Origin: Patescibacteria group bacterium
GTDB lineage: Bacteria > Patescibacteriota > Patescibacteriia > 2-01-FULL-39-33
DNA: 64,000 nt
NCBI GenBank assembly: GCA_041671305.1
Contig: JBAZBX010000001.1
Coordinates: forward strand, 40,821-104,820
Reading direction: 5' to 3'
Positions 13,331 to 58,976 of the stretch are shown here, in pieces; positions within the stretch are counted from its first letter, which is position 1, and each line of letters begins with the position of its first letter. The position numbers and the translations under genes are program-made. The notes below the pieces were generated by a model that saw only the letters and a program-made list of their open reading frames with translations, was not told where the DNA came from and made no database searches.

Positions 13331-13507
13331 AGCAAGATTGGGGGTTTGGGGGAAGCACCTTTCGCCAAAGCGCGAGTGTAAGCCGAACCTCAGCCAGCAG
13401 GATGAGGTGAGCGAAACGAAGCGCGACTAAGCAAGATAAAAAACACTCCGAGCATAAGGCGAAATTGCGTCCCCCAAAACCTTTGGTTCTTTCAGTTATG
13501 AAAGAAC
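13331..13507 (+). ncRNA. Copy 1 of a ~180-nt GC-rich structured element (candidate sRNA or cis-regulatory leader)
   Basis: Near-identical to 23770..23945. Terminal GGGGGTTTGGGGGA / TCCCCCAAAACC pairing, internal helices, and a 3' hairpin GTTCTTTC-agttat-GAAAGAAC. Confidence 0.45.
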
Positions 13508-13680
13508 ATAAATTAAACTTTTTTAAAAAATGGGTTGAATATAAGAGAAATTATCCAAAATTAGATAAAATATAGGATTAATACTTCCTATCTATTGACA
13601 AAAGTACAAATATATACTATATTATAGGGTCACAATGAGTGACGGAAGCACATCACAACCAAAAAGGAGCATTGACTGTC

Positions 13681-14552: not shown

Positions 14553-14650
14553 TGCGACCTTCACCAACCGGCAGAAGCACGATCGCCATCGTGACTTTCT
14601 GCCCCCAACTGAATTTACAAATTCTCATTTGCAACTTCTGAGGGTTATAA

Positions 14651-14684
14651 ACAAAAGACGGAATAATTCCGTCTTTTGTTTTAA
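14651..14684. terminator. Bidirectional rho-independent terminator
   Basis: AAAGACGGAAT-aa-ATTCCGTCTTT perfect hairpin followed by TTTGTTTT, between convergent genes. Confidence 0.7.
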
Positions 14685-14704
14685 ATTAAAAATTAAAAAT
14701 TAAC

Positions 14705-24928: not shown

Positions 24929-24939
24929 ATTAAAAATAT

Positions 24940-25464
24940 ATGACCAAATCAATTGACTTGGAATTTGAAAAAGCAATACGATTTCTAGTTAAATATATGC
25001 CAGTTTCTGACAAGAATAGCCGAAAACCTATTTTAGCCCATGGTATCCGCGTTGGAGTTTATCTTTATGAAAATAATTATTCACAAGATATTATTATAGC
25101 TGGACTTTTACATGACACTATAGAATGGTCCAAAGCTAGCAAAGGTATAATAAAAAAAGAATTCGGCAATAATATAACTAAGCTGATTTTAGCCAACACT
25201 AAAAAAGATTCCATCATAGATAAAGAAGAAAAAACCAACGAACTTATCAAACGTTGCATTAAAAACGGCCAAGACGCTTTGATTGTCAAAACGGCTGATA
25301 TAATTGATAGTTTCAAATGGTATTCAAAACAGAATAATAAGGATCAGCTAGGATATTGCATGAGAAATGCCAATGCAATTCTTAAATTCAAACCGAGTAA
25401 TTTTCATGACAACATATTTGGCGAACTAAAAAAGTGGCAAAAAAAATTTAATAATCTAAGCTAA
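24940..25464 (+). CDS. HD-domain phosphohydrolase-like protein
   Basis: H...HD motif (LAHGIRV...GLLHDTIEW); 174 aa. Confidence 0.55.
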   Translation: MTKSIDLEFEKAIRFLVKYMPVSDKNSRKPILAHGIRVGVYLYENNYSQDIIIAGLLHDTIEWSKASKGIIKKEFGNNITKLILANTKKDSIIDKEEKTNELIKRCIKNGQDALIVKTADIIDSFKWYSKQNNKDQLGYCMRNANAILKFKPSNFHDNIFGELKKWQKKFNNLS

Positions 25465-28451: not shown

Positions 28452-28460
28452 TTTTAATTA

Positions 28461-30365: not shown

Positions 30366-30401
30366 AGTTTTTTAATTATCATCGCAATGACTCTTTTTGC
30401 T

Positions 30402-30773
30402 CTATTTCATGGCTACGATAGATCCAACTGGTGATATAACCTCAACTCTGGAAATAGGCACTAAATCTGATTTGGAAGCCCCGTTTACTATATTAGCCAT
30501 TGACTGTAATTGAATATAATTCAAATTAAGTTTGGTACTTACTTCCTGCAAGTCGGATAACTGCCTTTGCAAATCATTGACTTGATATCCTTTGGTGGCT
30601 GTAATATTAGTCTGCATCAGATATGCCACTCCGACTAAAACCGTTATAACTACCACGAGCGAGGTGCCTTTCATGCCACAGAGAAAACAAGCGGCCAAAG
30701 ATCCAAATCCTTTTTTCGGATTCAATTCAGGAAAATGATGATTAGATTTTTCGTGCTTCCAAAACCTTCCCAT
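30402..30773 (-). CDS. FtsL/DivIC-like cell-division protein (assigned by position)
   Basis: Small bitopic protein with one TM followed by a coiled-coil (LQRQLSDLQE), between rsmH and ftsI. Confidence 0.5.
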   Translation of the reverse strand: MGRFWKHEKSNHHFPELNPKKGFGSLAACFLCGMKGTSLVVVITVLVGVAYLMQTNITATKGYQVNDLQRQLSDLQEVSTKLNLNYIQLQSMANIVNGASKSDLVPISRVEVISPVGSIVAMK

Positions 30774-30785
30774 ATATGATTATGA

Positions 30786-31691
30786 TTAGTTAAAAGTTTT
30801 CTCAATGACTCGCAGTTTTGCGCTTCTGCTACGCGGATTCTCCTGGCTTTCTTGCTCCGTAGCGACTATCGGCTTCTTGGTGATAATTTTTATTCTTGGC
30901 TTATCCTGCTTGGATTCGTCTCTGAAATAATTCTTGATTATCCTATCTTCTCCTGAATGGAAAGAAATTACCGCCAATCTTCCTCCGGACTTAAGTAATT
31001 CTATGGCTTGAGGAAGTACCGTATGGATATTGCCGAATTCATCATTAACCGCAATACGCAACGCCTGAAATACTTTGGTGGCGGGCGATTTTTTGGATTT
31101 AGCACGGTAATGCCTGCCATAAACGCCTTCAACTAGTTGCACCAAAGCCTCTACCGTCTCTATTTTATTTCCTGCCTCTCTTTCCGCAACGATCTTCTTG
31201 GCTATAGGCCAAGCTAGAGGCTCCTCTCCGTATTCCTTAAATATTCTGAATAATTCTTTTTGATTGTATGATTGCAAAATCTCCGCTGCCGTCATCTGAT
31301 CAGATGAGGCATTATATCTCATGTCAAGAGTTCCGCTATCTTGGAAACTAAATCCCCGACTCCTTGCGCCGAGCTGATCTGATGATAGCCCAAGGTCAAG
31401 TAGAACACCGTCAATTTTGCCAATTCGCTTATCATCGCTTAATTTTTTATAAATATTTTTTAAATTCCGATAATTATCATTTACCAGAATTAAATTTTTA
31501 TTACTACTGGTCTGAATGACACTGGGATCCAAATCAATTCCGATAAGCTTGCCATCAGGTTTTATGCGCTCCAAAATTTCCAATGAATGACCACCGCCTC
31601 CAAAAGTACAATCTATAAAATTCTGTCCAGGCTGAGGGTCTAAATACTGCAATACCTCCTGCAAGAGCACTGGCTCATGGATCGTGGCCAT
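30786..31691 (-). CDS. rsmH: 16S rRNA (cytosine1402-N4)-methyltransferase
   Basis: MraW family; FIDCTFGGGGHS SAM-binding motif. Confidence 0.9.
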   Translation of the reverse strand: MATIHEPVLLQEVLQYLDPQPGQNFIDCTFGGGGHSLEILERIKPDGKLIGIDLDPSVIQTSSNKNLILVNDNYRNLKNIYKKLSDDKRIGKIDGVLLDLGLSSDQLGARSRGFSFQDSGTLDMRYNASSDQMTAAEILQSYNQKELFRIFKEYGEEPLAWPIAKKIVAEREAGNKIETVEALVQLVEGVYGRHYRAKSKKSPATKVFQALRIAVNDEFGNIHTVLPQAIELLKSGGRLAVISFHSGEDRIIKNYFRDESKQDKPRIKIITKKPIVATEQESQENPRSRSAKLRVIEKTFN

Positions 31692-32877: not shown

Positions 32878-34251
32878 TTAATATATTATAACCTTTGTCC
32901 CAATATCAACCCAATCATAAATCAACTTAGCCTGCGCCGTCAACATATTTACGCAACCATGGCTCATCACATGCCCAAAATTACTGTGCCAATAAGTTCC
33001 ATGAATTGTATACGCTCCCTTAAACGACGCTACCCAAGGCACATTGGGCAAATTATAATCCGTTCCAACCATATTTACTTTTGGCCTTTTTTTGAATATA
33101 GAGAATAATCCTTTTGGCGTCGGTTTACTGGCTAACCCAGAAGAAATCAAAAATGTATCTAATTTTCTCCCATCTTGCCAATATGTCAATTTCTGATTTT
33201 TTAAATCAACATCAATAAATTTGTAATCACCGCTTCTATAGCTATCAAAAGTTCTCTCCGGTAAAGTCACGATTTCATTTTTTCCGTCACCGTCTATATC
33301 GCCCACTGCATTTTTTATTCCACCCAGATAGTTATCCAACTCATACGGCTTAAATTCTTTCAATAAAGTCCCCTTGGTGTCAAAAACTCTTACTACGGCA
33401 AAGCCATGGAAACTGGGACTAACTACGATTTCCGAATTTCCATCACCATTTAAATCTCCGCCGGAAACATTTATTCCTCCATTATATTTATCATCAAAGG
33501 CCGCAAACCTCCCTGTCTCTGCCAAATCAGAATTCAAAATTAGCACTTCTGGCTTATTGCCATAACCCGGAGAAATCAAAATAGCTTCTTTACTGCCGAA
33601 AAGAGGTAATTTTCCCAAGTTCACCCCTCCCGCATTACCAAAATCCAATTTTTTATTTTTTAATATCTTTCCTTGCGTGTCATAGACAGCAATCTGAGCC
33701 GGCTGATTGAGGTTTGAACCGGTTACTATTTCAGACTTATTGTCGCCATTTAAATCAACAACCAAGACCTTGATCCCGCTTCGGCCATTATTATCGCCGG
33801 AGAAAAAATTAAAGAAATTATTTCCATCGCCATAAAATCCTCGCACCTGAGGTCCGCCTCTATATCCCGCTCCGGTCGCAATCTCAGATTTCCCGTCCCC
33901 ATCTATATCTCCAGCAGAAATAAAGACTCCGCCTTTAAAAGACTCCGCATAAGCCATAAACTCTCCCATCTTCTGACCATTGTCTGACCATATTTCTACC
34001 CTGGGAGAATTTCCACTGCCCGTAGAAACAATAATTTCCTCCTTGCCGTCATTATCAATATCGCCCAGACTCAGATCAGTATTTCCCAGATAAATATTGC
34101 CACCCAATACTTCAAAACTTGTTTTCAACTTTCCCTCAGAATCAAATATCTTTATTTGTGGAGAAATAACATTGCCAGCCTTGGTTATAGCAGGAAATAT
34201 TATTAAGCCCAGCACTATCATTAAAAATGATACAAAAAATATTTTTTTCAT
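32878..34251 (-). CDS. Secreted FG-GAP/VCBS-repeat protein with a C-terminal L,D-transpeptidase (YkuD) domain
   Basis: Signal peptide; repeated GDIDGDGKxEI motifs; C-terminal HGTYWHSNFGHVMSHGCVNM catalytic His/Cys motif. Confidence 0.75.
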   Translation of the reverse strand: MKKIFFVSFLMIVLGLIIFPAITKAGNVISPQIKIFDSEGKLKTSFEVLGGNIYLGNTDLSLGDIDNDGKEEIIVSTGSGNSPRVEIWSDNGQKMGEFMAYAESFKGGVFISAGDIDGDGKSEIATGAGYRGGPQVRGFYGDGNNFFNFFSGDNNGRSGIKVLVVDLNGDNKSEIVTGSNLNQPAQIAVYDTQGKILKNKKLDFGNAGGVNLGKLPLFGSKEAILISPGYGNKPEVLILNSDLAETGRFAAFDDKYNGGINVSGGDLNGDGNSEIVVSPSFHGFAVVRVFDTKGTLLKEFKPYELDNYLGGIKNAVGDIDGDGKNEIVTLPERTFDSYRSGDYKFIDVDLKNQKLTYWQDGRKLDTFLISSGLASKPTPKGLFSIFKKRPKVNMVGTDYNLPNVPWVASFKGAYTIHGTYWHSNFGHVMSHGCVNMLTAQAKLIYDWVDIGTKVIIY

Positions 34252-34951: not shown

Positions 34952-37207
34952 ATGGAAAATTTCTCCACCAAAATAAGCAAGCTATCCTTAGAAGCCGATC
35001 CATCAGTAATCGGCGAGGCTTTTGTTGCAAAAACAGAAAGAAATTTAGCCAAAAACCTTGGTTTACTTTTTGGAGTTACTGATTTGTGCGATCTTCCGGA
35101 CGGCTTTGTGGATAAATTCACTGAGATGATTTCCGATCTTAAAACAGAATATTATCTGCCCCCATTTGATATTGAAGAAGGGTTGGAAAAAAGATTTGAG
35201 GAATGTCTGCAAAGAGCCAACAGAAGACTGAATAAAATAATCAACGAATCATTTGAGGAAATTAATCTTTCCGGCATTCATGCCATTATCGGACTTATCC
35301 ACAAGAACAAAATTTATTTGAGCCAGATAGGTCATATCAGCGCTTTCCTGTTCCACCAGAGGAAACAGTTTGATCGTATCATTATAGATATCCTGGGCGT
35401 TGGCGCTGACAAAAAAGCCAAGATAGACCATGAAAAAATGTTTTCTAATATTGTCAGCGGAGCCATAAGCGAAAAAGATGACATCATCATCTGCAATTCA
35501 AAAGTTTTGGAAGCTGTTTCGCAATATGATCTTCTTGGACTATTTTCCGAATCCCAGGCAGAAGAAGTCATTCCAGTCAAGCTGGAAAAACTCATTGAGT
35601 CAATCGGACAAAAAAGCAATTTTTATGCCATTATTATCCAACCTGATATTGAAGAAGTCACTCAGCAATCTACAGGATCGTTGCCTATAAACAAAAATAA
35701 TCAAGTTCCATCTCTCCCCTCGCAAAATTCCATAAATAAATTGCTCCGGACCCAAGAGAAAACCGAGAAATACTTGACCCCATCGCTCATGCCTTCATGG
35801 CAAAAAATTCTAATTCTACTAGGCCGAGGAATCAAAAAAACATCAATTTTTATTTGGAAATATCTCAAGATAGTTTTGATTTATATCAATAATTATGCGA
35901 GAAAGCTTTTTATAATAATTAAAAACAAATTATTCAAAAAATCCGCCGCCAAAGAGATTATGCCAATTATTCCTGGCGGAGCAAGCTCCCAAATAGAGCC
36001 CATGAAACCTAGTGAAAAATTTTCCGAAATTACTCAGCCTGATTTCCAACAAATGCCTGCCACCAACCCGCTAAACATAATTAGCAATTGGGTTAATGGG
36101 CAGATTGCCAAGATAATACGATTAAACAAACTTCAAAAAGCGCTGCTGATTTTGGCCTTAATCTTAATTTTTGCCTTCAGCGAAAGTATTGTTTGGATGG
36201 GACAAGCTTCTTCCAATAAAAAATCTCCCAACGATCCTCAAGTAATTTCCCTGCAGATTGAGGATAAATTAAGTCTCGCAGAGGCACAAAACATCTTCAA
36301 CGACGAAGTTGGCGCCAAAAGTTATCTGCAACAAGCCAGGGATTTACTGGCCAAAATACCAGAGAAAAAGAAATATCAATCCATGAGATCGGACTTGCTA
36401 AGCAAAATAGAAAAATTAAGCCAAACTATACAAAAAATATCCTATCTGGAAAATCCTCAATTAATAACTGACCTAACTGCCGATAACGCACAGATAAAAA
36501 GCATGGCTCTTTCCGGCAGAATCCTTTTTGTCTATGGCAACGGCAATCAAATATTGTATCAAATAGATTTGGACAAAAAACAAATTAATAAATCTAATAT
36601 TCCTCAAAATTTAAATATTATCAAAATTGCTTCTCTGGATGCCAAAAATTTAATTATATTGGACAATTCCGGTAATTTATTCAAATATACCCTCAAAGCA
36701 TCTACGACTGATCCACTACTTTCCGGAAGCGCCAGCGACGTCTCCCTCTATGCCGGCAAAATCTATATTCTTCAAAAAGACAAAAATCAAATCATCAAAT
36801 ATAGTCTAGTCAAAAATAAACTGTCCACTCCCAGTTCCCTTATCAAAAATAACTACAATCTTGCCAATACTTCAGCCATTTCTGCCACGGTAAGCGGTGT
36901 GTTGTCTTTTGACAATTCCGGCCAAATTAAATATTTCAAAAAGGGAATCCCCGATAACATGCCTTTTACAGTAATTGATCCGGCAGTCAAGCCTCCCGTC
37001 CAAATATATGGCGATTCAGCCGGATACATTTATCTACTGGATCAAACCAATAAAAAAGTAATTATATATGACAAAAAAGGCGAGTTAAAAGTTCAAATTA
37101 CTTCTACTCAATTTAATTCTTTGGATGGCATGGCCGTATCCGAGAAAGACAAGAAGATTTATCTTCTTTCCGGAAGCAAAATATTTGCCATCAATACTAA
37201 TTTATAA
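34952..37207 (+). CDS. Large hypothetical membrane-anchored protein (751 aa)
   Basis: Cytosolic N-terminal domain, a central TM (LLILALILIFAF), and a C-terminal region with a beta-rich repeat character. Confidence 0.45.
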   Translation: MENFSTKISKLSLEADPSVIGEAFVAKTERNLAKNLGLLFGVTDLCDLPDGFVDKFTEMISDLKTEYYLPPFDIEEGLEKRFEECLQRANRRLNKIINESFEEINLSGIHAIIGLIHKNKIYLSQIGHISAFLFHQRKQFDRIIIDILGVGADKKAKIDHEKMFSNIVSGAISEKDDIIICNSKVLEAVSQYDLLGLFSESQAEEVIPVKLEKLIESIGQKSNFYAIIIQPDIEEVTQQSTGSLPINKNNQVPSLPSQNSINKLLRTQEKTEKYLTPSLMPSWQKILILLGRGIKKTSIFIWKYLKIVLIYINNYARKLFIIIKNKLFKKSAAKEIMPIIPGGASSQIEPMKPSEKFSEITQPDFQQMPATNPLNIISNWVNGQIAKIIRLNKLQKALLILALILIFAFSESIVWMGQASSNKKSPNDPQVISLQIEDKLSLAEAQNIFNDEVGAKSYLQQARDLLAKIPEKKKYQSMRSDLLSKIEKLSQTIQKISYLENPQLITDLTADNAQIKSMALSGRILFVYGNGNQILYQIDLDKKQINKSNIPQNLNIIKIASLDAKNLIILDNSGNLFKYTLKASTTDPLLSGSASDVSLYAGKIYILQKDKNQIIKYSLVKNKLSTPSSLIKNNYNLANTSAISATVSGVLSFDNSGQIKYFKKGIPDNMPFTVIDPAVKPPVQIYGDSAGYIYLLDQTNKKVIIYDKKGELKVQITSTQFNSLDGMAVSEKDKKIYLLSGSKIFAINTNL

Positions 37208-50192: not shown

Positions 50193-51158
50193 TTAAAATC
50201 CCAGATATTCTATTTCCTCCATCAATTGCAAATCAAAAGTGTCTCTCACTTTCTGTTTTATAATGCTAATTAGCATAATTACGTTTTCCGCCGTCGCCCC
50301 TCCGATATTAATAATAATACCAGCATGATTTTCAAAAACTTTGGCATGGCCGATTTCTTTGCCTTTGAGTTCGCATTTATCAATCAACCAAGCAACTGGA
50401 ATTTTCCGATATTTTACATATTGATCGGGAAAATTCGGAAATTTTTCCTGAAACAGTTTAATTTCTTCTGCGCTAGTTTCTATATTCTTGAAAACACAAC
50501 CTGCCGAAAAACCCGCAAACTTCGGAGCCCTTTCGCTGATAATTTTTTTTACTCTTTCTCTAGCTTGATTAGTATCACTTTTTTGCAGTTTCATGGTGAC
50601 AGACAAAATTACATCTTTATTGCCATTCTTTTTGAAAACGCTTTCCCGATAACCAAATTCACAATCAGAAACGGACAAAGATTTGATCTTGCCATCACGC
50701 AAAACTTTTACTTCTATGATGTTTCTGCTCATATCACTGCCATAAGCTCCGGCATTTCCCCTGACTGCTCCTCCTATTGTGCCGGGAATTCCTGCCGCCC
50801 ACTCCAGACCGGAAAGACCTTCAGCCAATGACTGACTGAGCGCTTTGGCCAGAATTACTCCAGCCTCGCATTCAACAATTTCATCTTTTATGTTTAGACG
50901 ATCTCCGGACATCTTTATTACTAGTCCCGGATAGCCGTTATCACTGACTAATATATTGCTTCCGCCACCCAGGACGACATACGAAATCGCATTTTTCTCC
51001 GCCCAGGACAACACCTCCTGAAACTCTTCTAAATTTTGAATAACGGCGAAATACCTGGCCGGTCCGCCGATACGAAATGTGGTATGAGAAGACAACGGCT
51101 CATTTTCCATAAATCTTTCATTCAAAATTTCCTTTATTTTACTAGTATCTGAATTCAT
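50193..51158 (-). CDS. murB: UDP-N-acetylenolpyruvoylglucosamine reductase
   Basis: FAD-binding HTTFRIGGPARYF...VLGGGSNILV. Confidence 0.9.
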   Translation of the reverse strand: MNSDTSKIKEILNERFMENEPLSSHTTFRIGGPARYFAVIQNLEEFQEVLSWAEKNAISYVVLGGGSNILVSDNGYPGLVIKMSGDRLNIKDEIVECEAGVILAKALSQSLAEGLSGLEWAAGIPGTIGGAVRGNAGAYGSDMSRNIIEVKVLRDGKIKSLSVSDCEFGYRESVFKKNGNKDVILSVTMKLQKSDTNQARERVKKIISERAPKFAGFSAGCVFKNIETSAEEIKLFQEKFPNFPDQYVKYRKIPVAWLIDKCELKGKEIGHAKVFENHAGIIINIGGATAENVIMLISIIKQKVRDTFDLQLMEEIEYLGF

Positions 51159-51343
51159 TATTTTTTTCTTTTATCAATTAATTTAATTTCTTTCTTTTTT
51201 TTGGTCTTAATATAATATCCGGATTGTTCCATCACCTGCCGTTGCTTGGCAAAACCAGTGCCTTTGACTTTCCGTTTCGGGCGCTTTTCCTGCTCTAGCT
51301 TGTTTTGTAAATTATATAAATCTTTTTCCATATAGACAAGCAA
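51158..51343 (-). CDS. Small lysine-rich hypothetical protein
   Basis: 61-aa ORF between murC and murB. Confidence 0.3.
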   Translation of the reverse strand: MLVYMEKDLYNLQNKLEQEKRPKRKVKGTGFAKQRQVMEQSGYYIKTKKKKEIKLIDKRKK

Positions 51344-51349
51344 CTTGAA

Positions 51350-52726
51350 TTATTTTTTCACTAGATTTTGGGCCACGTCATAGATATTACCTGCCCCCAT
51401 AATAAGTATTACGTCAAAATCACCTGCTTTGGTTCTAATTAAATTCTCGGTTTCGTTTAAACTGCCTCCGTAAACGGCATTAGCGCCTGAATTTTTGGCC
51501 TCTTCCGCCAACACCACGGAATTAATATCAAAATCCTCGGGCCTTTCCCGACCTTCTACATAGTAGATGTCGGAAATAATAGCCATATCCGCCAAGGAGA
51601 AACTCTGGACAAATTCATTGAACAAATTTTTTGTTCGCGCAAATTGGTGGGGCTGGAACACGACCAAAATCTTTTGGGAAGGAAAAAATTCCTTGGTTGC
51701 CTCAATGGTTTTATATACTGCGTCCGGCGTATGAGCATAATCGGTGATAAGAAGCGCCTTACCCAGATGACCAAGCTTTTCAAATCGTCTCCAAGCACCA
51801 TTAAATCCAGCCAAAGACGACCTAATCACTTCCCACCTAATGTTAAACTGCCTGGCAACCGCAATGGAGGCCAAAGCATCATAAACATTAAATCTGCCAG
51901 GGATATTAATAAAAAAATTCTCCCCAAAATTACCCCTCTGGAAAACATCAAAATATTGTTTACCGTTATTTAAGTGAATGCACTTGGCAGTAAAATCAGA
52001 TTCATTATCCAACCCGTAAGTTATTATTCTAGCCTGGCATTTTGCAGAAGCTTGGCTGGAATTTGAATCATCATTATTGATAACTAGCATGCCGTCGCCA
52101 GGCAATTTTTCAAAATACTTTTTGAAAGCCATCTTTATTTCTTTCGCATTTTTATAATAATCCAAATGATCTTCTCCAATATAAGTATTTACCGCCACCT
52201 TGGGATTGTAATTATCAAAGGCTCTTCTATATTCATCGCTTTCAAAAATAAAATATTTACTATTTCCGACCCTGGAATTGCCCCCAAGATAATCAGCTTT
52301 GCTTCCCAATATAATAGTTGGATCCATCCCGGCATCTACAAAAATTTTTCCCAGCATGGCGGTGGTAGTCGTTTTGCCATTGGTGCCGGAAATTCCTATA
52401 GCGTATTTATCTTTCATCAAAAATCCCAAAAGATCAGGATAAGTCAGGGTATTTATTTTTAACTTCCTGGCTTCCTGCCGTTCACAATTATCTTCCGGCA
52501 CAGCCACGCTATAAACCACCAGATCAATATCGTCTTTTATATTCTCGGATCTGTGTCCGATAATAATATTTATCCCTTCCTTGGATAATTGTTCCGTTAT
52601 CTCGCTTTCTGTGGCATCACTGCCGGAGACTTCCTTTTTTTGAAAATTCAAAACACGCGCCACCGCCGAAATGCCAATTCCACCAATGCCGACAAAATGT
52701 ATTTTTTTTATTTCCGATAAATCCAT
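51350..52726 (-). CDS. murC: UDP-N-acetylmuramate--L-alanine ligase
   Basis: HFVGIGGIGISAVA Rossmann motif and GISGTNGKTTTTAM P-loop. Confidence 0.9.
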   Translation of the reverse strand: MDLSEIKKIHFVGIGGIGISAVARVLNFQKKEVSGSDATESEITEQLSKEGINIIIGHRSENIKDDIDLVVYSVAVPEDNCERQEARKLKINTLTYPDLLGFLMKDKYAIGISGTNGKTTTTAMLGKIFVDAGMDPTIILGSKADYLGGNSRVGNSKYFIFESDEYRRAFDNYNPKVAVNTYIGEDHLDYYKNAKEIKMAFKKYFEKLPGDGMLVINNDDSNSSQASAKCQARIITYGLDNESDFTAKCIHLNNGKQYFDVFQRGNFGENFFINIPGRFNVYDALASIAVARQFNIRWEVIRSSLAGFNGAWRRFEKLGHLGKALLITDYAHTPDAVYKTIEATKEFFPSQKILVVFQPHQFARTKNLFNEFVQSFSLADMAIISDIYYVEGRERPEDFDINSVVLAEEAKNSGANAVYGGSLNETENLIRTKAGDFDVILIMGAGNIYDVAQNLVKK

Positions 52727-52732
52727 GCTGAT

Positions 52733-53803
52733 TTATTTATCTTTGACTATTGATTTAATTAAGCCGACCACATTTTTGGCTCCATCTTTGGCCATAATAT
52801 GAGATATATTTTCAGACAATAATTCGCTCTGACTCTTGCGGTTAGAAAACAAGTCTTTGATCACTCCAACAAACATAGCCGGCGTCAGGCTTTCTTGAGA
52901 AAGCACCAAAGCCGCTTCATGTTTTTGATAATAATGAGCGTTTAATTCTTGATGACTGTGAGGCATGGGTATTAAAATTGCCACCTTGCCCATTATAGAT
53001 AGCTCCGACAAAGTTGAAATGCCACACCTAGACACGACGATATCAGCCACGCACAAGGCCTCAATTAATTCTGAAGTCAAAAATTCAAATTGATGATAAT
53101 TATCAGACTGGACATCAATCTTTTTGCCATGACCAGTGACATGGATTATCTGGCAAAATTTAATCAAATCAGCAATAGCTTTTTCCATAATTTCATTAAT
53201 GCCCTTGGCTCCCGTGCCTCCCCCCATCACCAGAAGAATCGGGAGATCCGAATTCAATTTAAAAAATTCTCTGCTCTCGTCACGATTGCAATAATAAAAT
53301 TCTTGTCGCACCGGATTTCCGGTAAGCACCGTCTTTTTAGGATTAAAATCTTTGAGCGACACATCAAATGAAACCGTTATTTTCCTAGAAATATTGGCCA
53401 TCAACTTATTGGCTAAGCCGGCTACAATATCCTGCTGATGAACAATAACCGGAATATGGAGAAGCCATGCTGCATAAGCGACCGGTACGCCTACAAAAGC
53501 GCCAGCGACCATTACCGCCTCCGGTCTGAATTTCCAGACAATACCAAAGGCCTGAAAAAATCCCAAAATTATTTTGAATGGATCTGTAAAATTCTGCCAA
53601 CTGAAATATCTGCGAAATTTTCCTGATGAAATGGATTTAAACGGTATCTTGTAACTTTCTACGGCCTTCCTCTCCGGCCCGCTTTCCGTACCAATAAAAA
53701 GAAACTTATCACTGCCATGGCTACTTTTTTTAAACTCTTCATAAACTGCAATAAGCGGACTGACTGATCCCATGGTTCCACCGCCTGATAATAATATTTT
53801 CAT
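52733..53803 (-). CDS. murG: Undecaprenyldiphospho-muramoylpentapeptide beta-N-acetylglucosaminyltransferase
   Basis: GT28; SGGGTMGSVSP and GGGTGA motifs. Confidence 0.9.
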   Translation of the reverse strand: MKILLSGGGTMGSVSPLIAVYEEFKKSSHGSDKFLFIGTESGPERKAVESYKIPFKSISSGKFRRYFSWQNFTDPFKIILGFFQAFGIVWKFRPEAVMVAGAFVGVPVAYAAWLLHIPVIVHQQDIVAGLANKLMANISRKITVSFDVSLKDFNPKKTVLTGNPVRQEFYYCNRDESREFFKLNSDLPILLVMGGGTGAKGINEIMEKAIADLIKFCQIIHVTGHGKKIDVQSDNYHQFEFLTSELIEALCVADIVVSRCGISTLSELSIMGKVAILIPMPHSHQELNAHYYQKHEAALVLSQESLTPAMFVGVIKDLFSNRKSQSELLSENISHIMAKDGAKNVVGLIKSIVKDK

Positions 53804-53817
53804 ATGAATTTATTTAA

Positions 53818-54966
53818 TTAGCGATATGAATTCTGTTTGGATATATTAACCAAAATTCCGGCTGCTGCCAAGGAGGCCATAATGGAAGTGCCTCCGTATG
53901 AGATAAATGGCAAAGTCACTCCGGTAAGCGGTAAGATACCGACCATGGCGCCGATATTAAAAAATGCTTGGAATGCAAACCAAGAAATAATACCTACGAC
54001 CAACAATTTACCAAAAGTATCTTCACATCTTTGCGCCAGCTTGAGGCCTCTTATTGCCAAAAAGATAAAAACTGCCACAATAATTGAAGCGAAGATAAAT
54101 CCTAATTCTTCAGACACCACGGCAAATATGGAATCTCCGGTTACCTCGGGAAGATAATTGAACTTTTGTATAGAATGGCCATATCCCTTGCCAAACCATC
54201 CGCCGGATCCGACAGCCAGAAGCGCTTGGTTGATATGATACCCGGTTCCCAAAGGATCAAGTTCCGGATGCAAGAAAGTTGTAAATCTCTCTCCTCTATA
54301 CGGAGAGAATTTTATAAGTAAGGCCAAAGCACCCGCTCCCAAAACTCCGAGCCAGGTCAGATGAAGGACTTTTCCGCCAGCCGTAAAATATACCGACAGG
54401 GACATGAGAATTATAATCATCATAGTTCCGGTATCTGGCTCCAAAACAGTCAGCAGGGAAATTATTCCTAATACAAATAGAAACGGCACGAAACCATACT
54501 GAAAATTTTTGAGATGACTTTCCTCTTTGGATGAGAGCCAGGAAGCTAAATACAAAAGAAATGTCAGCTTTACTATTTCAGACGGCTGAATGGAAAAACC
54601 AAAAATATAAATCCAACTTCGTGAGGTTCCCCAACTGGCGCCGATACCTGGGATAAACACCAAAACCAAAAGCGCAATAGAAAACAAAAGAAGTCCAGGA
54701 GCATAATTTTTCAGTTTGCGATAATCAAACTTAGAAAAAAGAAACATCAAAATCAGACCCGGAATAACGCCGACTAATAATTGATGCTTAAAATAATAAT
54801 ATGGATCATGAAATTTCTGCCAACCTACGGCTACTCCGGCTGAACAAAGCATGATCAACCCGAAAGCGGTCAAGAATAAAATCGTACCAACCAAATACCA
54901 ATCTGGCTCATTAGTATCATGAAAAAAATATTTTTTTATCTTTTCAATTAATTTTTTGATAAGCAT
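53818..54966 (-). CDS. ftsW: SEDS-family peptidoglycan glycosyltransferase / cell division protein FtsW
   Basis: Ten TM helices; conserved PEVTGDSIFAVVSEELG region. Confidence 0.85.
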   Translation of the reverse strand: MLIKKLIEKIKKYFFHDTNEPDWYLVGTILFLTAFGLIMLCSAGVAVGWQKFHDPYYYFKHQLLVGVIPGLILMFLFSKFDYRKLKNYAPGLLLFSIALLVLVFIPGIGASWGTSRSWIYIFGFSIQPSEIVKLTFLLYLASWLSSKEESHLKNFQYGFVPFLFVLGIISLLTVLEPDTGTMMIIILMSLSVYFTAGGKVLHLTWLGVLGAGALALLIKFSPYRGERFTTFLHPELDPLGTGYHINQALLAVGSGGWFGKGYGHSIQKFNYLPEVTGDSIFAVVSEELGFIFASIIVAVFIFLAIRGLKLAQRCEDTFGKLLVVGIISWFAFQAFFNIGAMVGILPLTGVTLPFISYGGTSIMASLAAAGILVNISKQNSYR

Positions 54967-55005: not shown

Positions 55006-57504
55006 TTATTTACTTTTTGATAATTTTTTAATTATAGCTTGAAACTGGTTTCCTTTTTCTTCAAAATTTTTCCATAAGCTATAACTGGGCGAAGCCGTGG
55101 AAAGCAGGCATATCTCCCCCGCCTTGGTACTTACATAAGCGAATTTAACCGCCTCAGCCATGCTATCCGTAGACAAAATATTTAGTTTATTTTTTTGTTT
55201 GAATATCCTCTGACCACTATCCGGGAACAGCACCACATTCTTTATTCCGGATTTGATAATTATACCTTCTAATTCTTTAAAATCATATCCTCTATCTTCA
55301 CCGCCGAGAAAAATTGTGCCGACTCTCGGCAAAGATTTAATGGCCATTATGGTTGATTCCGGCGTAGTGGAAATGGCGTCATCATAAAATTTGATTTCGT
55401 TATATTCTCCCACAAATTCCAAACGATGCGACAATGGCCGAAAAGTCTTGATCGCTTTTTTTATTATCACATCTGAAATGCCCAAAATTTTTACTGCTTT
55501 AACGGCGGCTAGGATATTGTCTTGATTATGCTTGCCCAAAAGAACTGTCTCATAATTCGCTCTACCATTATTATAAGCAAAAATTTGAGCAATGGATTCT
55601 TTCGCCCATAATTTCAAACCGGCAAACTTGGAATTATAAATAAAATAATCAGACGGACTTTGATACTTGATAATATTTCTCTTGGCATCATGGTACTTTT
55701 CTACTCCACCATGATAAGTCATGTGATCGGCGTATAAATTCAAAACCACAGCAATATTGGGTGAGTATTCTATGTCATCCAATTGATAAGAGGATAATTC
55801 CAAAACAAAAATTTCTTTCGGATTAATCGGTTTCATCAGAACCTCCAACATGGGATTGCCAATATTACCCAACAAACGGACTTTCTTGCCGGCGGTCTTC
55901 AAAATATGATAAATGAGCGACGCGGTGGTTGATTTACCTTTGGTACCAGTAACCCCGATAGTGAAATTGCTGATTTGTGACAGAAAAATATTGGTAGCCG
56001 TGGTATAAGGAATGGTTAATTTTTCTTTGGTGAGTCCCGGGGTTCTGATGGCAAAATCATAATCTTTCTGCTTTTCTAAATAATCTTTACCCTGCTTTTG
56101 ATCCGCGATACCGATATTTAACCATGGATATTTCTTCGCCAAATACTGTTTGGTTATTTTTCCTTCATTTTCATAACCCATAATTAAAATATTCTTCAGT
56201 CCCAACAGTCTCTGTGAAACTGGCATATTTTTTACGTCCTGAAATTTCAATAATTCTTCTAGTTTCCCAGACTGAACAATTTTTGTGTTCAGATTTTTTA
56301 TAACATAATCAGACTTAAATTTGGGACTAGCCAAACGCATCGCCAACTTTATTTCCTCAAAAGTGCCCACACATTCAAACGGCTTCATCTTCCCCTCTCC
56401 AATCAAATCTTGATATAGGGGCAAAAGCAACTCGTCCGCATATAAATTCTTGCCAAATATTTTGATAACTTTATCCTTTGGCAGATATGCCGACAAAAGC
56501 GCAAAAACAAAGGCGCATTTCGGGCACTCTCCACACCACAATGTTTTCTGGCGTTCCTTGTTCGCTTTAAAATTTAAATTACAACTGGAGAATAAATGAT
56601 GGTATTTCTTATGCTGAGCAAACATCTGAGCTATGCGAATTTCGTAATATGGACGAAGCAAAGAATAATACTGAATATCCGGCGTGATAAATTTCCGGCA
56701 ATAATTTTGAAACAACTGTTCAAATTCCAAGGACTTGCTCCACTGGTGATTAATTTCCAATCCTTTGTATTTAATATTGCCAAAATTACTAGAATACTCA
56801 TTACCCACAACTACCTCGCCATAATCATATAATACTGCGCCCAAAAGTCCCATAAACGCGACTATAGCGCTAAAGGGAACATGACCATTATAAGCCTCAG
56901 GAAAAGTTTGAAATATCTTCGGATCTAATTTACGAATAATTGCCAGTTTGTCCGTACCGAGAGCTTTTATGGTTTTATCAATAATCGGCGAACCTTTTTC
57001 CGTTTCCATCACAAAAGAAGAAAACTTTTGTCCGGCTCGCTTCATGAGTTCTGCCACCACTATTGAATCCTTTCCTCCTCCGATGCCAACCAACGCCCTT
57101 TTCTGCCTCGGATATTTAATTGCCTGCGCCTGCGCTTTATTGTCGCTGGCAAAAACCGGAGAATTATTCGGATCCAAGTGATTGCGATAATAAAATTCTC
57201 CCAATCCCTTTTTGTAAACAATACCAAAAAATTCTGCCTGTTCTGATGTTAATTTGTACGGATGTATAACCTTCTTCGGGCAATATAATTTGTAATAGCT
57301 CAACCCCAAAATCAAGTGTAGAGAAGACAATAAATTCTTGAGTAATGGCTGAGGTACTGACTGAGGCGTCTTTGGTAGAATAATAGTTTCCGTAAACAAT
57401 AGTGGTTTGCCACTGAAAAAATTAATTTGGTAATTAAAATAAACCCGCCTTTGCGCCGGCTTAAATTGGTATGAGACAAATTCAAAACTTTTGGGTTTGG
57501 TCAT
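55006..57504 (-). CDS. murD: UDP-N-acetylmuramoylalanine--D-glutamate ligase fused to an N-terminal PP-loop ATP-pyrophosphatase-like domain
   Basis: The C-terminal ~400 aa are MurD (GVTGTKGKSTTASL P-loop). The N-terminal ~420 aa have GIGGGKDS (PP-loop SGGxDS-like) and C-x13-CGECPKC. One continuous 832-aa ORF. Confidence 0.75.
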   Translation of the reverse strand: MTKPKSFEFVSYQFKPAQRRVYFNYQINFFSGKPLLFTETIILPKTPQSVPQPLLKNLLSSLHLILGLSYYKLYCPKKVIHPYKLTSEQAEFFGIVYKKGLGEFYYRNHLDPNNSPVFASDNKAQAQAIKYPRQKRALVGIGGGKDSIVVAELMKRAGQKFSSFVMETEKGSPIIDKTIKALGTDKLAIIRKLDPKIFQTFPEAYNGHVPFSAIVAFMGLLGAVLYDYGEVVVGNEYSSNFGNIKYKGLEINHQWSKSLEFEQLFQNYCRKFITPDIQYYSLLRPYYEIRIAQMFAQHKKYHHLFSSCNLNFKANKERQKTLWCGECPKCAFVFALLSAYLPKDKVIKIFGKNLYADELLLPLYQDLIGEGKMKPFECVGTFEEIKLAMRLASPKFKSDYVIKNLNTKIVQSGKLEELLKFQDVKNMPVSQRLLGLKNILIMGYENEGKITKQYLAKKYPWLNIGIADQKQGKDYLEKQKDYDFAIRTPGLTKEKLTIPYTTATNIFLSQISNFTIGVTGTKGKSTTASLIYHILKTAGKKVRLLGNIGNPMLEVLMKPINPKEIFVLELSSYQLDDIEYSPNIAVVLNLYADHMTYHGGVEKYHDAKRNIIKYQSPSDYFIYNSKFAGLKLWAKESIAQIFAYNNGRANYETVLLGKHNQDNILAAVKAVKILGISDVIIKKAIKTFRPLSHRLEFVGEYNEIKFYDDAISTTPESTIMAIKSLPRVGTIFLGGEDRGYDFKELEGIIIKSGIKNVVLFPDSGQRIFKQKNKLNILSTDSMAEAVKFAYVSTKAGEICLLSTASPSYSLWKNFEEKGNQFQAIIKKLSKSK

Positions 57505-57543: not shown

Positions 57544-58599
57544 CTAGTGCCACCCTCCCCTATCCATTAGAAAAATTACCAAGCCAATAACGGAAGTCAT
57601 GGCAGAAATGACCCAAAAACGCATGACCACTTTGGCTTCCGGCCAGCCTTTGGCTTCAAAATGATGATGAATCGGAGTAGAGAGAAAAACCTTTTTGCCT
57701 TTACGTAATTTTTTGGAAATCACTTGGATGATGACCGAGCCGGATTCCACCACAAACATAAATCCAATTATGGGCAAAAGTAAAATGGAATTAGTGAGAA
57801 TGGCGATAATCGCCAGTGTCACACCAAGAGCCATCGCTCCGGTATCGCCCATAAAAAACCTGGCCGGCGTAATATTGAACCACAAGAAAGCAAGAAGCGC
57901 GCCAATTATAACTGCACAGAATGTAGCTAGATCATATTTGCCTTGAGCAAAAGCTATAGCGCCGAAGGACGCAAACGCGGCCAAAAGCGTCCCGCCAGAC
58001 AAACCGTCAAGTCCGTCAATTTCATTGACCGAGAAAGCCGTGCCTACGATGACAAAAATTACAAAAGGAATAAACCACCAGCCAATTTCAAAATTTCCCA
58101 CAAAAGGAATTCTGACTATATCCCAATCCAACCGGAAATAAAACCACAGTGCCGCGATAACCGCTATGGTCGTATACACCGCCAACCTATACTTTACTGA
58201 CAGACCTCCACCATAAAGACCAATTTTTCTGACATTGAGATAATCATCAAAAAGTCCTACGATGGCGGCGGCAATTAAAGCGCCCAAAGGAAGCAAGGTC
58301 TGCGGTCTGGTTAGAAAATTCAAATCCGTAAAAACATGATCAAACCACTTGCCAAAATAAAAGAAAAAAACTGACATCAGAAGCACGGTCAGCCAAATAA
58401 GAATTCCGCCCATGGTCGGCGTGCCCGATTTTTTCTGATGGAGAGAGAAAAAAATAGGAGCCTTGTCCGAAGTCCTTATCTGTTTTCCTAATTTATATTT
58501 ATACAAAAAATGCGTCAGGATGGGCGTCATAGCAAAAGCAATCGCAAAAGAAAGAAAAGCGAGCAAAAAAATCCTCATGACGGCGAAGTTTAAGTCCAT
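57544..58599 (-). CDS. mraY: Phospho-N-acetylmuramoyl-pentapeptide-transferase
   Basis: TPTMGG motif; multi-TM; HHHFE; 351 aa. Confidence 0.95.
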   Translation of the reverse strand: MDLNFAVMRIFLLAFLSFAIAFAMTPILTHFLYKYKLGKQIRTSDKAPIFFSLHQKKSGTPTMGGILIWLTVLLMSVFFFYFGKWFDHVFTDLNFLTRPQTLLPLGALIAAAIVGLFDDYLNVRKIGLYGGGLSVKYRLAVYTTIAVIAALWFYFRLDWDIVRIPFVGNFEIGWWFIPFVIFVIVGTAFSVNEIDGLDGLSGGTLLAAFASFGAIAFAQGKYDLATFCAVIIGALLAFLWFNITPARFFMGDTGAMALGVTLAIIAILTNSILLLPIIGFMFVVESGSVIIQVISKKLRKGKKVFLSTPIHHHFEAKGWPEAKVVMRFWVISAMTSVIGLVIFLMDRGGWH

Positions 58600-58601: not shown

Positions 58602-58976
58602 TTAGAGATTTATATATATTAGAAGGAAGCAGGCTAAAGCCAAAATTAAATTAAAAATCAAAGCTGAAACTGACAAAAAATGGCTCAACGCCTGTTTTTT
58701 CAAATAAAAGTAAAAAGACAACAAGAAGTTTACACCGATAACAAGCAATCCCAAAAATGGCGGAATTAAAATCTTGTACCAAATATCCAAATCACTGATT
58801 CCGAAATATACATTATAATGCAAGATTATATACTCTGGGGCGCTAAAAAATTTGACCAAATAAGCCGCCCAAACGGCTATATTGATTATTAATGCTAAAA
58901 TTAGGCTAATTAGAATAATCCTATCCCTTTTGGCCGGACTAGTGGTGATTAATTCCCTAAATTTGAAAAAAATCAT
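58602..58976 (-). CDS. Hypothetical polytopic membrane protein
   Basis: 124 aa with four hydrophobic helices, immediately upstream of mraY. Confidence 0.35.
   Translation of the reverse strand: MIFFKFRELITTSPAKRDRIILISLILALIINIAVWAAYLVKFFSAPEYIILHYNVYFGISDLDIWYKILIPPFLGLLVIGVNFLLSFYFYLKKQALSHFLSVSALIFNLILALACFLLIYINL

What the first reader, a model, noticed from the sequence alone, without database searches (positions are those of the whole stretch)
55006..57504. MurD fused to a ~420-aa N-terminal PP-loop ATP-pyrophosphatase-like domain
A single 832-aa ORF sits between mraY and ftsW. Its C-terminal half is a canonical MurD. The N-terminal half carries GIGGGKDS (PP-loop SGGxDS-like) and a C-x13-CGECPKC cysteine cluster reminiscent of QueC/TtcA-type adenylating enzymes. 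Such a fusion at the heart of the dcw cluster suggests an extra ATP-dependent step coupled to D-Glu addition, for example amidation, an alternative amino-acid activation, or epimerization support.
Basis: partly seen in the sequence, partly recalled or inferred. Interest (0 to 1): 0.6.

Follow-up and report, generated by a model that had tools for sequence, protein, structure and literature searches.

The report
Fused MurL epimerase–MurD2 glutamate ligase
This single 832-aa cell-wall gene joins two known enzymes, a ligase that most likely adds L-glutamate to the peptidoglycan precursor and the ATP-driven MurL epimerase that then turns it into D-glutamate, and the pathway, described as rare, turns out to be common in the ultra-small Patescibacteria.

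Summary
The 832-aa ORF (55006-57504, minus strand) between mraY and ftsW is real and is not an assembly artefact. More than 100 full-length fused homologues (51-100% identity) come from independent assemblies.

The C-terminal half keeps every MurD catalytic residue. At the published chirality positions it carries the MurD2 (L-Glu ligase) signature: I711, R738, P806 and Y808. The one exception is D593, which is Glu in most relatives.

murL sits directly upstream of a MurD2-type ligase in most of the 80 genome loci examined, and the two are fused in 24 of them. One large clade of Patescibacteria holds most of the fusions.

Most likely function: ligate L-Glu, then epimerise it on the nucleotide precursor, so that no free D-Glu is needed.

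This is a new architectural variant of a known two-enzyme pathway. Public records annotate it only as a D-glutamate ligase. Activity, substrate chirality and absence of MurI remain untested.

The parts
55006..57504 (-). Whole fused gene murL-murD2, 832 aa plus stop
   Evidence: ORF list. NCBIfam finds MurL at aa 5-412 and murD at aa 470-826. 120 full-length fused homologues. The full-length AF2 model has pLDDT 91.7 and pTM 0.88.
56215..57504 (-). [quoted passage not shown]
   Evidence: NF041275 E=1.5e-100, covering profile positions 8-415 of 447. About 35% identity end-to-end to MurL of Dyella, Micromonospora and Actinoplanes, with shared motifs. AF2 pLDDT 94.3, pTM 0.93.
57115..57504 (-). MurL-specific N-terminal subdomain, aa 1-130 (three long beta-strands plus helices); role unknown, possibly substrate binding
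   Evidence: Secondary structure of the model. Solved PP-loop enzymes align over only 145-179 residues of the 430-residue model, so much of it lies outside the shared core; that this N-terminal part is outside the core is inferred. F7, F9, Y12, Y25 and E39 are nearly invariant.
56485..57105 (-). QueC-like PP-loop ATP-pyrophosphatase core, about aa 134-340
57064..57087 (-). PP-loop motif GIGGGKDS (aa 140-147), the predicted ATP alpha/beta-phosphate binding site
   Evidence: Translation. G144, D146 and S147 are invariant, and G142, G143 and K145 at least 90% conserved, across 83 fused and stand-alone MurL sequences.
56515..56583 (-). Four-Cys cluster C308-x15-C324-x2-C327-x2-C330, a presumed structural metal (Zn) site as in QueC
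   Evidence: Translation. The four Cys are at least 90% conserved family-wide and invariant among fusions. Metal identity is inferred from the QueC resemblance, not tested.
56365..56385 (-). KPFECVG motif with invariant C378, a candidate acid/base residue for alpha-proton exchange
   Evidence: P375, C378 and V379 are invariant in 83 diverse MurL sequences. The motif is present in Dyella, Micromonospora and Actinoplanes MurL. The catalytic role is inferred.
56197..56274 (-). Ordered helical connector between the two enzymes, aa 411-436
   Evidence: pLDDT 80-94 across this stretch in the full-length model. In split relatives, MurL ends about 25 aa after the KPFDCVG motif and murD begins with its own Met.
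55009..56214 (-). MurD2-type UDP-MurNAc-L-Ala:glutamate ligase half, aa 431-832
   Evidence: TIGR01087 255.8 bits, Mur_ligase_M and Mur_ligase_C. Best solved relatives are MurD structures (3lk7, E=6e-50). All MurD catalytic residues are conserved.
55924..55947 (-). Mur-ligase P-loop GTKGKSTT (aa 520-527; K524 = E. coli K115)
55726..55728 (-). D593 = E. coli D182 / X. oryzae MurD2 E197, a chirality determinant. This one is the MurD-like residue.
   Evidence: Alignment to E. coli MurD: E in 104 and D in 16 of 120 fused homologues. E in 59 and D in 9 of 68 MurL-linked ligases. The role of E197 is from PMC8788868.
55372..55374 (-). I711 = E. coli K319. It is Lys in the solved D-Glu ligases, and K319T lets E. 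coli MurD accept L-Glu.
   Evidence: I in 115 of 120 fusions. I/L/F in all 68 MurL-linked ligases. K in the solved MurDs aligned. The K319T result is from PMC8788868.
55291..55293 (-). R738 = E. coli K348 / X. oryzae MurD2 R358, a chirality determinant. This one is MurD2-like.
   Evidence: R in 120 of 120 fusions and in all MurL-linked ligases.
55081..55089 (-). P806-S807-Y808 = E. coli A414-S415-L416 / X. oryzae MurD2 P433-x-F435, MurD2-like
   Evidence: P in 120 of 120 and Y in 119 of 120 fusions. The solved MurDs have A-S-(L/F/W) here.
57544..58599 (-). mraY, immediately upstream (39-nt spacer)
   Evidence: TIGR00445 231.6 bits. Spacer sequence.
50193..54966 (-). Downstream genes of the same block: ftsW (53818-54966), murG (52733-53803), murC (51350-52726), murB (50193-51158)
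   Evidence: ftsW (TIGR02614), murC (TIGR01082) and murB (NF010480, TIGR00179) score above their curated cutoffs. murG matches the murG models strongly (NF009102 E=6.4e-78; TIGR01133 246.7 bits) but falls just below cutoff (250.25).

Best explanation
[quoted passage not shown] Step 2 (inferred from homology to characterised MurL and from the fold): the N-terminal QueC-like PP-loop domain uses a second ATP (to AMP + PPi) to adenylate the alpha-carboxylate of the new terminal L-Glu. This acidifies the alpha-proton. A conserved base removes it and it is returned on the opposite face. Candidates are C378, H208, H253 and K257. An oxazolone intermediate is also chemically plausible. Hydrolysis of the adenylate then releases the D-Glu product irreversibly for MurE.

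Fusing two genes that are adjacent (murL then murD2) in most relatives gives 1:1 stoichiometry. It may also allow hand-over of the L-Glu intermediate.

Shown here: the ORF, its conservation, family membership, the fold, the pocket residues and the gene linkage. Not shown: any enzymatic activity, the chirality of the substrate, the metal, or channeling.
For: - The N-domain matches MurL (NF041275) at E=1.5e-100 over almost the whole profile. It aligns end-to-end at about 35% identity with MurL from Dyella, Micromonospora and Actinoplanes, genera in which the review places the pathway. The GGGKDS, NGHxP, NHQWSK, YFSLLRP, SCN, WCxxCPKC and KPFECVG motifs are shared.
- All 16 residues invariant across 83 diverse MurL sequences are present in the window protein.
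- The ligase half keeps K115, N138, E157, H183, K198, N268, N271, R302, D317, T321, S415 and F422 (E. coli numbering). It has the MurD2 residues R738, P806 and Y808, and it lacks K319 (I711).
- The same E/D-[ILF]-R-[PA]-[YFH] signature is found in all 68 MurL-linked ligases, including those of Dyella, Micromonospora and Actinoplanes. The solved D-Glu ligases have K319 and A414.
- In 73 of 80 genome loci a MurD-type ligase is fused to murL or lies close by. It lies directly downstream on the same strand in most of the split cases.
- The gene occupies the murD slot between mraY and ftsW, and no second murD is in the window.
Against: - Position 593 is Asp, as in D-Glu-specific E. coli MurD, not the Glu197 of X. 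oryzae MurD2. The review reports that the E197D single mutant had altered stereospecificity, and that E197D/R358K switched it completely. The window's ligase may therefore accept D-Glu as well as, or instead of, L-Glu.
- The MurL score (337 bits) is far below NCBI's equivalog cutoff of 700. Identity to experimentally relevant lineages is only about 35%.
- Absence of glutamate racemase or D-amino-acid aminotransferase could be checked only in this 64-kb window, not in the genome.
- At least one member of the radiation (a Saccharibacterium) is reported to have glutamate racemase activity (title of reference 104 in PMC11974145).
- No biochemical data exist for any Patescibacteria member.
Confidence: 0.78

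Rival explanations
1. Dual-specificity ligase plus corrector. Because of D593, the ligase half accepts both D-Glu (for example, scavenged from a host) and L-Glu. The unidirectional MurL domain only converts the fraction made with L-Glu, so the product is always the D-form.
For: D593 is the E. coli-type residue at one of the two positions shown to control chirality, and single E197D mutants of X. oryzae MurD2 had changed stereospecificity. 16 of 120 fused homologues and 9 of 68 MurL-linked ligases share this Asp while keeping an intact MurL. MurL is reported to be strictly L-to-D.
Against: The other diagnostic positions (I711, R738, P806, Y808) are MurD2-like. E. coli MurD mutated at these positions did not readily gain L-Glu use, so the effect of one residue is context-dependent. 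No data show that D-Glu is available to these cells.
Confidence: 0.13
2. The N-domain uses the same carboxylate adenylation for a different outcome in Patescibacteria. One example is amidation of the Glu alpha-carboxylate to isoglutamine with ammonia, which would be QueC- or NAD-synthetase-like chemistry.
For: The closest solved folds (QueC, NAD synthetase, asparagine-synthetase-like enzymes) are amidating PP-loop enzymes. Identity to characterised MurL lineages is only about 35%, and the score is below the equivalog cutoff.
Against: All family-invariant residues, including C378, H208, H253 and K257, are shared with the Xanthomonadales and Micromonosporaceae proteins. The partner ligase carries the L-Glu signature, which makes sense only if epimerisation follows. 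No glutaminase domain or partner gene is present in the block.
Confidence: 0.05
3. The fusion is an artefact: two adjacent genes joined by a sequencing or assembly error, or by a missed stop codon.
For: Close relatives exist in which murL and murD are separate adjacent genes.
Against: More than 100 independent full-length fusions at 51-100% identity. The same 832-aa protein occurs on several contigs. 24 fused loci occur in species-representative genomes, most of them in one coherent clade. The connector is ordered and confidently modelled. Split relatives use a different frame and their own start codon.
Confidence: 0.01
4. The N-domain is a QueC- or TtcA-type queuosine or tRNA-modification enzyme, fused by chance and unrelated to peptidoglycan.
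For: QueC is the best structural match, and a few homologues carry a weak precomputed hit to the MnmA family PF03054.
Against: Sequence identity to QueC is only 13-19%, and only 167-179 residues align out of the 430-residue model. The specific family match is MurL. The domain is linked to a MurD-type ligase in nearly every locus across several phyla.
Confidence: 0.01

Closest known systems
MurL, UDP-N-acetyl-alpha-D-muramoyl-L-alanyl-L-glutamate epimerase (X. oryzae XOO_1319; NCBIfam NF041275)
   Same: Homology runs over the full ~410-aa length (E=1.5e-100). All family-invariant residues and motifs are shared. It is genetically coupled to a MurD2-type ligase. The PP-loop fold fits the published ATP-to-AMP requirement.
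   Different: Here MurL is the N-terminal half of one polypeptide instead of a separate ~450-aa protein. Identity is about 35% and the score is below the equivalog cutoff. The host is a Patescibacteria MAG, a group not listed among known MurL hosts in the two reviews read.
MurD2, UDP-MurNAc-L-Ala:L-glutamate ligase (X. oryzae XOO_1320)
   Same: Mur-ligase three-domain enzyme encoded next to murL. It shares R358, P433 and an aromatic residue at 435 (R738, P806, Y808), and Lys319 of E. coli MurD is replaced (I711), as in Dyella, Micromonospora and Actinoplanes.
   Different: It has Asp (D593) where X. oryzae MurD2 has Glu197, one of the two residues shown to set chirality. It is fused C-terminally to MurL.
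[quoted passage not shown]
   Same: Same position in the dcw cluster between mraY and ftsW. Same catalytic residues. The score is above the TIGR01087 cutoff. D182 is retained.
   Different: The D-Glu pocket residues K319, K348, A414 and L416 are I, R, P and Y. The protein carries an extra 430-aa epimerase domain.
QueC (7-cyano-7-deazaguanine synthase) and QueC-like Cap9/QatC, PP-loop ATP pyrophosphatases
   Different: Only 13-19% identity. MurL has an additional ~130-aa N-terminal subdomain and a ~90-aa C-terminal helical region. The substrate is a UDP-muramoyl dipeptide and the outcome is epimerisation, not amide or nitrile formation.

Membership tests
[quoted passage not shown] | Full-length sequence homology to the MurL profile | tested here: met
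   NF041275 E=1.5e-100, 336.8 bits; aa 5-412 match profile positions 8-415 of 447.
[quoted passage not shown] | Score above NCBI's equivalog cutoff (700 bits; the model is built for Xanthomonadales) | tested here: not met
   336.8 bits against 700. Other Patescibacteria and unnamed fused or stand-alone relatives also score 270-441 bits.
[quoted passage not shown] | Family-invariant residues and motifs shared with MurL of lineages where the pathway is established | tested here: met
   G144, D146, S147, H208, P210, H253, Q254, K257, S307, N309, W323, K329, P375, C378 and V379 are all present. Motif-by-motif alignment with Dyella, Micromonospora and Actinoplanes.
[quoted passage not shown] | Genetic coupling to a MurD2-type ligase | tested here: met
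   Fused in the window. A MurD-type ligase is fused or lies close by in 73 of 80 loci.
[quoted passage not shown] | ATP/Mg-dependent unidirectional L-to-D epimerisation with AMP release | not testable with these tools
   Needs an enzyme assay.
[quoted passage not shown] | Host genome lacks glutamate racemase and D-amino-acid aminotransferase | tested here: inconclusive
   None is found among the ORFs of at least 150 aa submitted to family scans, and no MurI motif occurs in any of the six frames of the 64-kb window. The rest of the genome is not available.
[quoted passage not shown] | Mur-ligase architecture with the complete MurD catalytic set | tested here: met
[quoted passage not shown] | Both chirality-determining residues of X. 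oryzae MurD2 (Glu197 and Arg358) | tested here: inconclusive
   Arg is present (R738) but Glu is replaced by Asp (D593). 104 of 120 fused homologues have Glu.
[quoted passage not shown] | Pro433 and an aromatic residue at 435, and loss of E. coli Lys319 | tested here: met
   P806, Y808 and I711. The same pattern is seen in Dyella, Micromonospora and Actinoplanes.
[quoted passage not shown] | Preference for L-Glu over D-Glu in vitro | not testable with these tools
   Needs an enzyme assay.
Canonical MurD (D-Glu ligase) | D-Glu pocket residues Lys319, Lys348, Ala414 and Leu416 (E. coli numbering) | tested here: not met
   I711, R738, P806 and Y808. The solved MurDs keep K319 and A414.
PP-loop ATP pyrophosphatase superfamily (QueC-like) | SGGxDS-type PP-loop after the first strand of a Rossmann-like core | tested here: met
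   GGGKDS at aa 142-147 (Gly replaces the first Ser), following strand 137-140.
PP-loop ATP pyrophosphatase superfamily (QueC-like) | Three-dimensional fold | tested here: met
PP-loop ATP pyrophosphatase superfamily (QueC-like) | Metal bound by the four-Cys cluster | not testable with these tools
   Cys308, Cys324, Cys327 and Cys330 are conserved. Whether the metal is Zn or Fe-S is unknown.

The most novel reading that the evidence does not exclude
In a large part of the Patescibacteria, peptidoglycan D-Glu is made only after ligation, by a single rigid MurL-MurD2 polypeptide that hands the L-Glu intermediate from one active site to the other. These cells would then need neither glutamate racemase nor a free D-Glu pool. 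The 'rare' MurD2/MurL route would be one of the major D-Glu routes in bacteria. The natural Asp593 variants might additionally let the enzyme use D-Glu scavenged from a host.
Probability: 0.3. Interest if true: 0.6.

Novelty: new variant of a known kind. Interest (0 to 1): 0.48.

Why it matters
The MurD2/MurL route was presented as confined to a few genera (Xanthomonas, Stenotrophomonas, some Alphaproteobacteria, Micromonosporaceae). On that basis it was proposed as a narrow-spectrum antibiotic target (PMC8788868).

Here the family has 2,582 representatives at 50% identity. It occurs in at least 598 species-representative genomes. It is common across Patescibacteria, often as a single fused gene.

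If the function holds, four things follow:
- It explains how these reduced genomes obtain D-Glu for their cell wall.
- It corrects a systematic mis-annotation, since these proteins are named only 'UDP-MurNAc-L-alanine--D-glutamate ligase'.
- It gives a structural rationale for MurL's unexplained ATP-to-AMP chemistry, namely a QueC-like PP-loop adenylating core with a conserved Cys/His/Lys set. The reviews described MurL as lacking known domains.
- It offers a naturally fused, compact construct for structural work on MurL. No MurL structure was found in the PDB copy searched.

Tried and rejected
- Artefactual fusion was rejected on conservation.
- A sequence search of the PDB with the N-domain found nothing significant (best E=0.38), so fold assignment needed a model.
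- The local Pfam copy sees only the Mur_ligase_M and Mur_ligase_C domains. Precomputed hits list two newer families (PF26298, PF26299) whose names I could not read.
- An exact-protein contig look-up found nothing on record, so the rest of the source contig was unavailable.
- The afdb50 fold library was not installed.
- The first MAFFT run timed out.
- My first residue mapping was off by one, because the literature numbers E. coli MurD without Met1. This was corrected.
- Six literature searches for MurL or glutamate racemase in CPR, Patescibacteria or Parcubacteria found no paper describing MurL or the fusion there. This covers only open-access text.
- The paper reporting MurI activity in Ca. 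Saccharimonas aalborgensis could not be read. Only its title is known.
- A motif scan for MurI in six frames of the window was negative, but this is weak evidence.
- Whole-genome absence of MurI and channeling between active sites could not be tested, because no coordinates or PAE are returned for the models.
Full report
**1. The observation**

The window contains one uninterrupted 832-aa ORF on the minus strand at 55006..57504. Base composition across it is uniform, with GC 0.35-0.40.

It lies 39 nt downstream of mraY (57544..58599) and 39 nt upstream of ftsW (53818..54966). murG, murC and murB follow. mraY, ftsW, murC and murB score above curated NCBIfam cutoffs. murG matches its models at E=6.4e-78 but falls just below cutoff.

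GIGGGKDS is at aa 140-147. The Cys cluster is at aa 308-330, and its spacing is C-x15-C-x2-C-x2-C rather than C-x13.

**2. Not an artefact**

- A search of 5.8 billion proteins returned 3,509 hits at E<=1e-10.
- The best 120 are all 781-860 aa and cover 95-100% of the query at 51-100% identity. They come from NCBI, JGI, ENA and Logan assemblies and are named Patescibacteria, Parcubacteria, Moranbacteria or Buchananbacteria.
- The protein itself is NCBI MFA6918579.1. The same 90%-identity cluster holds 832-aa copies from two other, shorter contigs.
- In relatives with separate genes, MurL stops about 25 residues after its KPFDCVG motif. murD then begins with its own Met in a different frame.
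- Fused and split forms are therefore real alternatives.

**3. What the N-terminal half is**

- The local Pfam copy recognises nothing in aa 1-430.
- NCBIfam matches aa 5-412 to NF041275, MurL (UDP-N-acetyl-alpha-D-muramoyl-L-alanyl-L-glutamate epimerase), at E=1.5e-100 over positions 8-415 of 447. The score of 337 bits is below the 700-bit equivalog cutoff of this Xanthomonadales-built model.
- The domain aligns end-to-end at about 35% identity with MurL of Dyella, Micromonospora, Actinoplanes and Emcibacter. All conspicuous motifs are shared.
- Across 83 diverse fused and stand-alone MurL sequences, the invariant residues are G67, G144, D146, S147, H208, P210, H253, Q254, K257, S307, N309, W323, K329, P375, C378 and V379. 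All are present in the window protein. C308, C324, C327 and C330 are at least 90% conserved.

**4. What is known about MurL**

According to the review PMC8788868 and PMC5808125:

- X. oryzae lacks glutamate racemase and D-amino-acid aminotransferase.
- MurL (XOO_1319) then converts the terminal L-Glu to D-Glu. The reaction runs in one direction only and uses one ATP, which is converted to AMP.
[quoted passage not shown] They proposed adenylation of the alpha-carboxylate.
- They listed the distribution as some Gammaproteobacteria, Alphaproteobacteria and rare actinobacteria. Low-similarity orthologues were noted in cyanobacteria, a fungus and an amoeba.
- Neither review mentions Patescibacteria or a fusion.

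**5. Fold of the N-domain**

- An AlphaFold2 model of aa 1-430, built with 95 sequences, is confident (pLDDT 94.3, pTM 0.93).
- Foldseek against the PDB gives QueC-family proteins first: Cap9 9nto (E=9.7e-6), QueC 3bl5 and 2pg3, and QatC 9y02. Carbapenam synthetase, TtuA, argininosuccinate synthetase, MnmA, NMN/NAD synthetase and ThiI follow.
The four-Cys cluster sits where QueC has its metal site. That comparison rests on my general knowledge of QueC.
- Solved PP-loop enzymes align over at most 179 residues of the 430-residue model. By inference, the first ~130 residues and the last ~90 are MurL-specific additions.
- No solved MurL structure appeared in either the sequence search or the fold searches.
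- A PP-loop fold explains the published ATP-to-AMP stoichiometry, because these enzymes adenylate a substrate oxygen and release PPi.

**6. What the C-terminal half is**

It scores as MurD (TIGR01087, 255.8 bits against a cutoff of 211.95). Its best solved relatives are MurD structures.

Aligned to E. coli MurD, it keeps the catalytic residues K115, N138, E157, H183, K198, N268, N271, R302, D317, T321, S415 and F422. Literature numbering is gene position minus one. An initial off-by-one mapping was corrected.

The review identifies X. oryzae MurD2 residues E197, R358, P433 and F435 (E. coli D182, K348, A414 and L416) around the glutamate. E197D/R358K switches MurD2 to D-Glu use. K319T lets E. 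coli MurD accept L-Glu.

| E. coli position | E. coli MurD | X. oryzae MurD2 | Window protein | 120 fused homologues |
|---|---|---|---|---|
| 182 | D | E197 | D593 | E in 104, D in 16 |
| 319 | K | not stated | I711 | I in 115 |
| 348 | K | R358 | R738 | R in 120 |
| 414 | A | P433 | P806 | P in 120 |
| 416 | L | F435 | Y808 | Y in 119 |

- All 68 MurL-linked ligases recovered from genomes share E/D-[ILF]-R-[PA]-[YFH]. Dyella is EIRPF, and Micromonospora and Actinoplanes are ELRPY.
- The solved D-Glu ligases aligned have Lys at 319 and Ala at 414.
- The ligase half is therefore a MurD2-type enzyme with one reversion-like difference. Asp593 is the main reason for caution about strict L-Glu specificity.

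**7. Distribution and linkage**

- A profile-free scan of 1.84 billion 50%-identity representatives found 2,582 MurL relatives at E<=1e-3 and 1,217 at E<=1e-30.
- Of the best 150, 19 are fused (795-914 aa), 124 are stand-alone (about 400-480 aa) and 7 have other lengths (282-625 aa), probably fragments.
- In every fused example examined, MurL is N-terminal and MurD C-terminal.
- The best 80 span Uhrbacteria, Moraniibacteriota, Staskawiczbacteria, Falkowbacteria, Peri-/Peregrinibacteria, Roizman-, Levy-, Woese-, Beckwith-, Taylor- and Nealsonbacteria, and Gracilibacteria.
- They also include Dyella, Emcibacter, Micromonospora and Actinoplanes, and MAGs labelled Weeksellaceae, Myxococcota, Thermoanaerobaculia and Solirubrobacteraceae. 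MAG labels are the submitters' own.
- Of these 80 loci, 24 are fused. In most of the others murD lies directly downstream on the same strand. In Micromonospora and Actinoplanes it is divergent. The few loci without murD mostly end near the match.
- A rough neighbour-joining tree puts the window and 21 fused loci in one clade, with two small additional fused groups. Parsimony infers a separate ancestral state and three changes. The tree has no support values, so the number of events is tentative.

**8. The whole protein**

- The full-length model has pLDDT 91.7 and pTM 0.88. The connector (aa 411-436) scores 80-94.
- This suggests a defined arrangement of the two enzymes rather than beads on a string.
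- No coordinates or PAE are returned, so whether the active sites face each other is unknown.

**9. Mechanism proposed**

- The ligase adds L-Glu, with ATP converted to ADP.
- The PP-loop domain adenylates the alpha-carboxylate of that Glu, with ATP converted to AMP + PPi.
- A conserved base abstracts the alpha-proton and it is returned from the other face. [quoted passage not shown]
- The steps are inferred from the published enzymology of homologues, from the fold and from the conserved residues. None is shown for this protein.

**10. Rivals**

- A dual-specificity ligase with MurL acting as corrector. This is plausible because of D593.
- An amidating or other adenylation outcome. This is chemically possible for the fold, but it is disfavoured by the shared invariant residues and the L-Glu-type partner.
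- An artefactual fusion, or a chance QueC fusion. Both are effectively excluded.

**11. Caveats on physiology**

- No MurI or D-amino-acid aminotransferase was found in the window, but 64 kb is a small part of a genome.
- A paper cited in PMC11974145 (reference 104, title only) reports glutamate racemase activity from a Saccharibacterium. The radiation is therefore not uniform in its D-Glu supply.

**12. Verdict**

- The domain is a member of the already characterised MurL family, and the ligase is MurD2-type rather than canonical.
- What is new relative to the accessible literature and to public annotation is the single-polypeptide architecture, the breadth of the pathway in Patescibacteria, and the QueC-like fold assignment for MurL.
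- I rate it a new variant of a known kind, of moderate interest.

Noticed in passing
window 27177-31691 (-): A second, separate cell-wall/division block lies about 24 kb from the mraY-murB block. It holds murF (27177-28451, TIGR01143 314.9 bits), a class B PBP/FtsI-like protein (28461-30365) and rsmH/mraW (30786-31691). The dcw cluster is therefore split, and no murE or ddl was seen among the ORFs scanned.
   Followed up: partly
window 32878-34251 (-): A 457-aa protein combines FG-GAP repeats with a C-terminal YkuD L,D-transpeptidase domain. This is an unusual pairing next to the division genes.
   Followed up: no
window 34952-37207 (+): A 751-aa ORF has no Pfam or NCBIfam match at the thresholds used.
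   Followed up: no
window 9575-17248: A large serine recombinase (9575-11062: Resolvase + Recombinase + Zn ribbon) and an 847-aa TraG/VirD4-like coupling protein (14705-17248) suggest an integrated mobile element in this small genome.
   Followed up: no
window 58602-58976 (-): A 124-aa ORF with long hydrophobic stretches ends 3 nt before the mraY start codon, in the position where murF usually sits. It has no family match.
   Followed up: no
window 57310-57504 (-): JGI's gene call for the same protein cluster is 767 aa, with the start 65 codons further in. That would delete the conserved N-terminal strands (F7, F9, Y12, Y25 and E39 are nearly invariant), so the 832-aa start is the right one.
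   Followed up: yes
L022 7060-7330, L023 1450-1720, L025 2330-2600: In these Patescibacteria loci the MurL gene is separate. It ends only about 25 aa after KPFDCVG, so it lacks the C-terminal helical region present in the fusion and in proteobacterial and actinobacterial MurL. murD starts about 10-20 nt later in another frame.
   Followed up: partly
L024, L054, L058, L068, L077: murL followed by a MurD2-signature ligase also occurs in MAGs labelled Weeksellaceae, Myxococcota, Thermoanaerobaculia and Solirubrobacteraceae, and in a Holdemanella biformis bin. This is wider than the distribution given in the reviews. The labels and binning were not verified.
   Followed up: no
P0266 (914 aa) and P0156 (883 aa): These are fused MurL-MurD proteins that score higher against the Xanthomonadales MurL model (441 and 401 bits) than the window protein does (337 bits). 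Fusions may therefore also exist outside the main Patescibacteria clade. Their taxonomy is unknown.
   Followed up: partly
window 24020-27000: A homoserine O-succinyltransferase (24020-24928) and a LeuA/homocitrate-synthase-like protein (25456-27000) are present. These are biosynthetic genes one might not expect in a reduced Patescibacteria genome.
   Followed up: no
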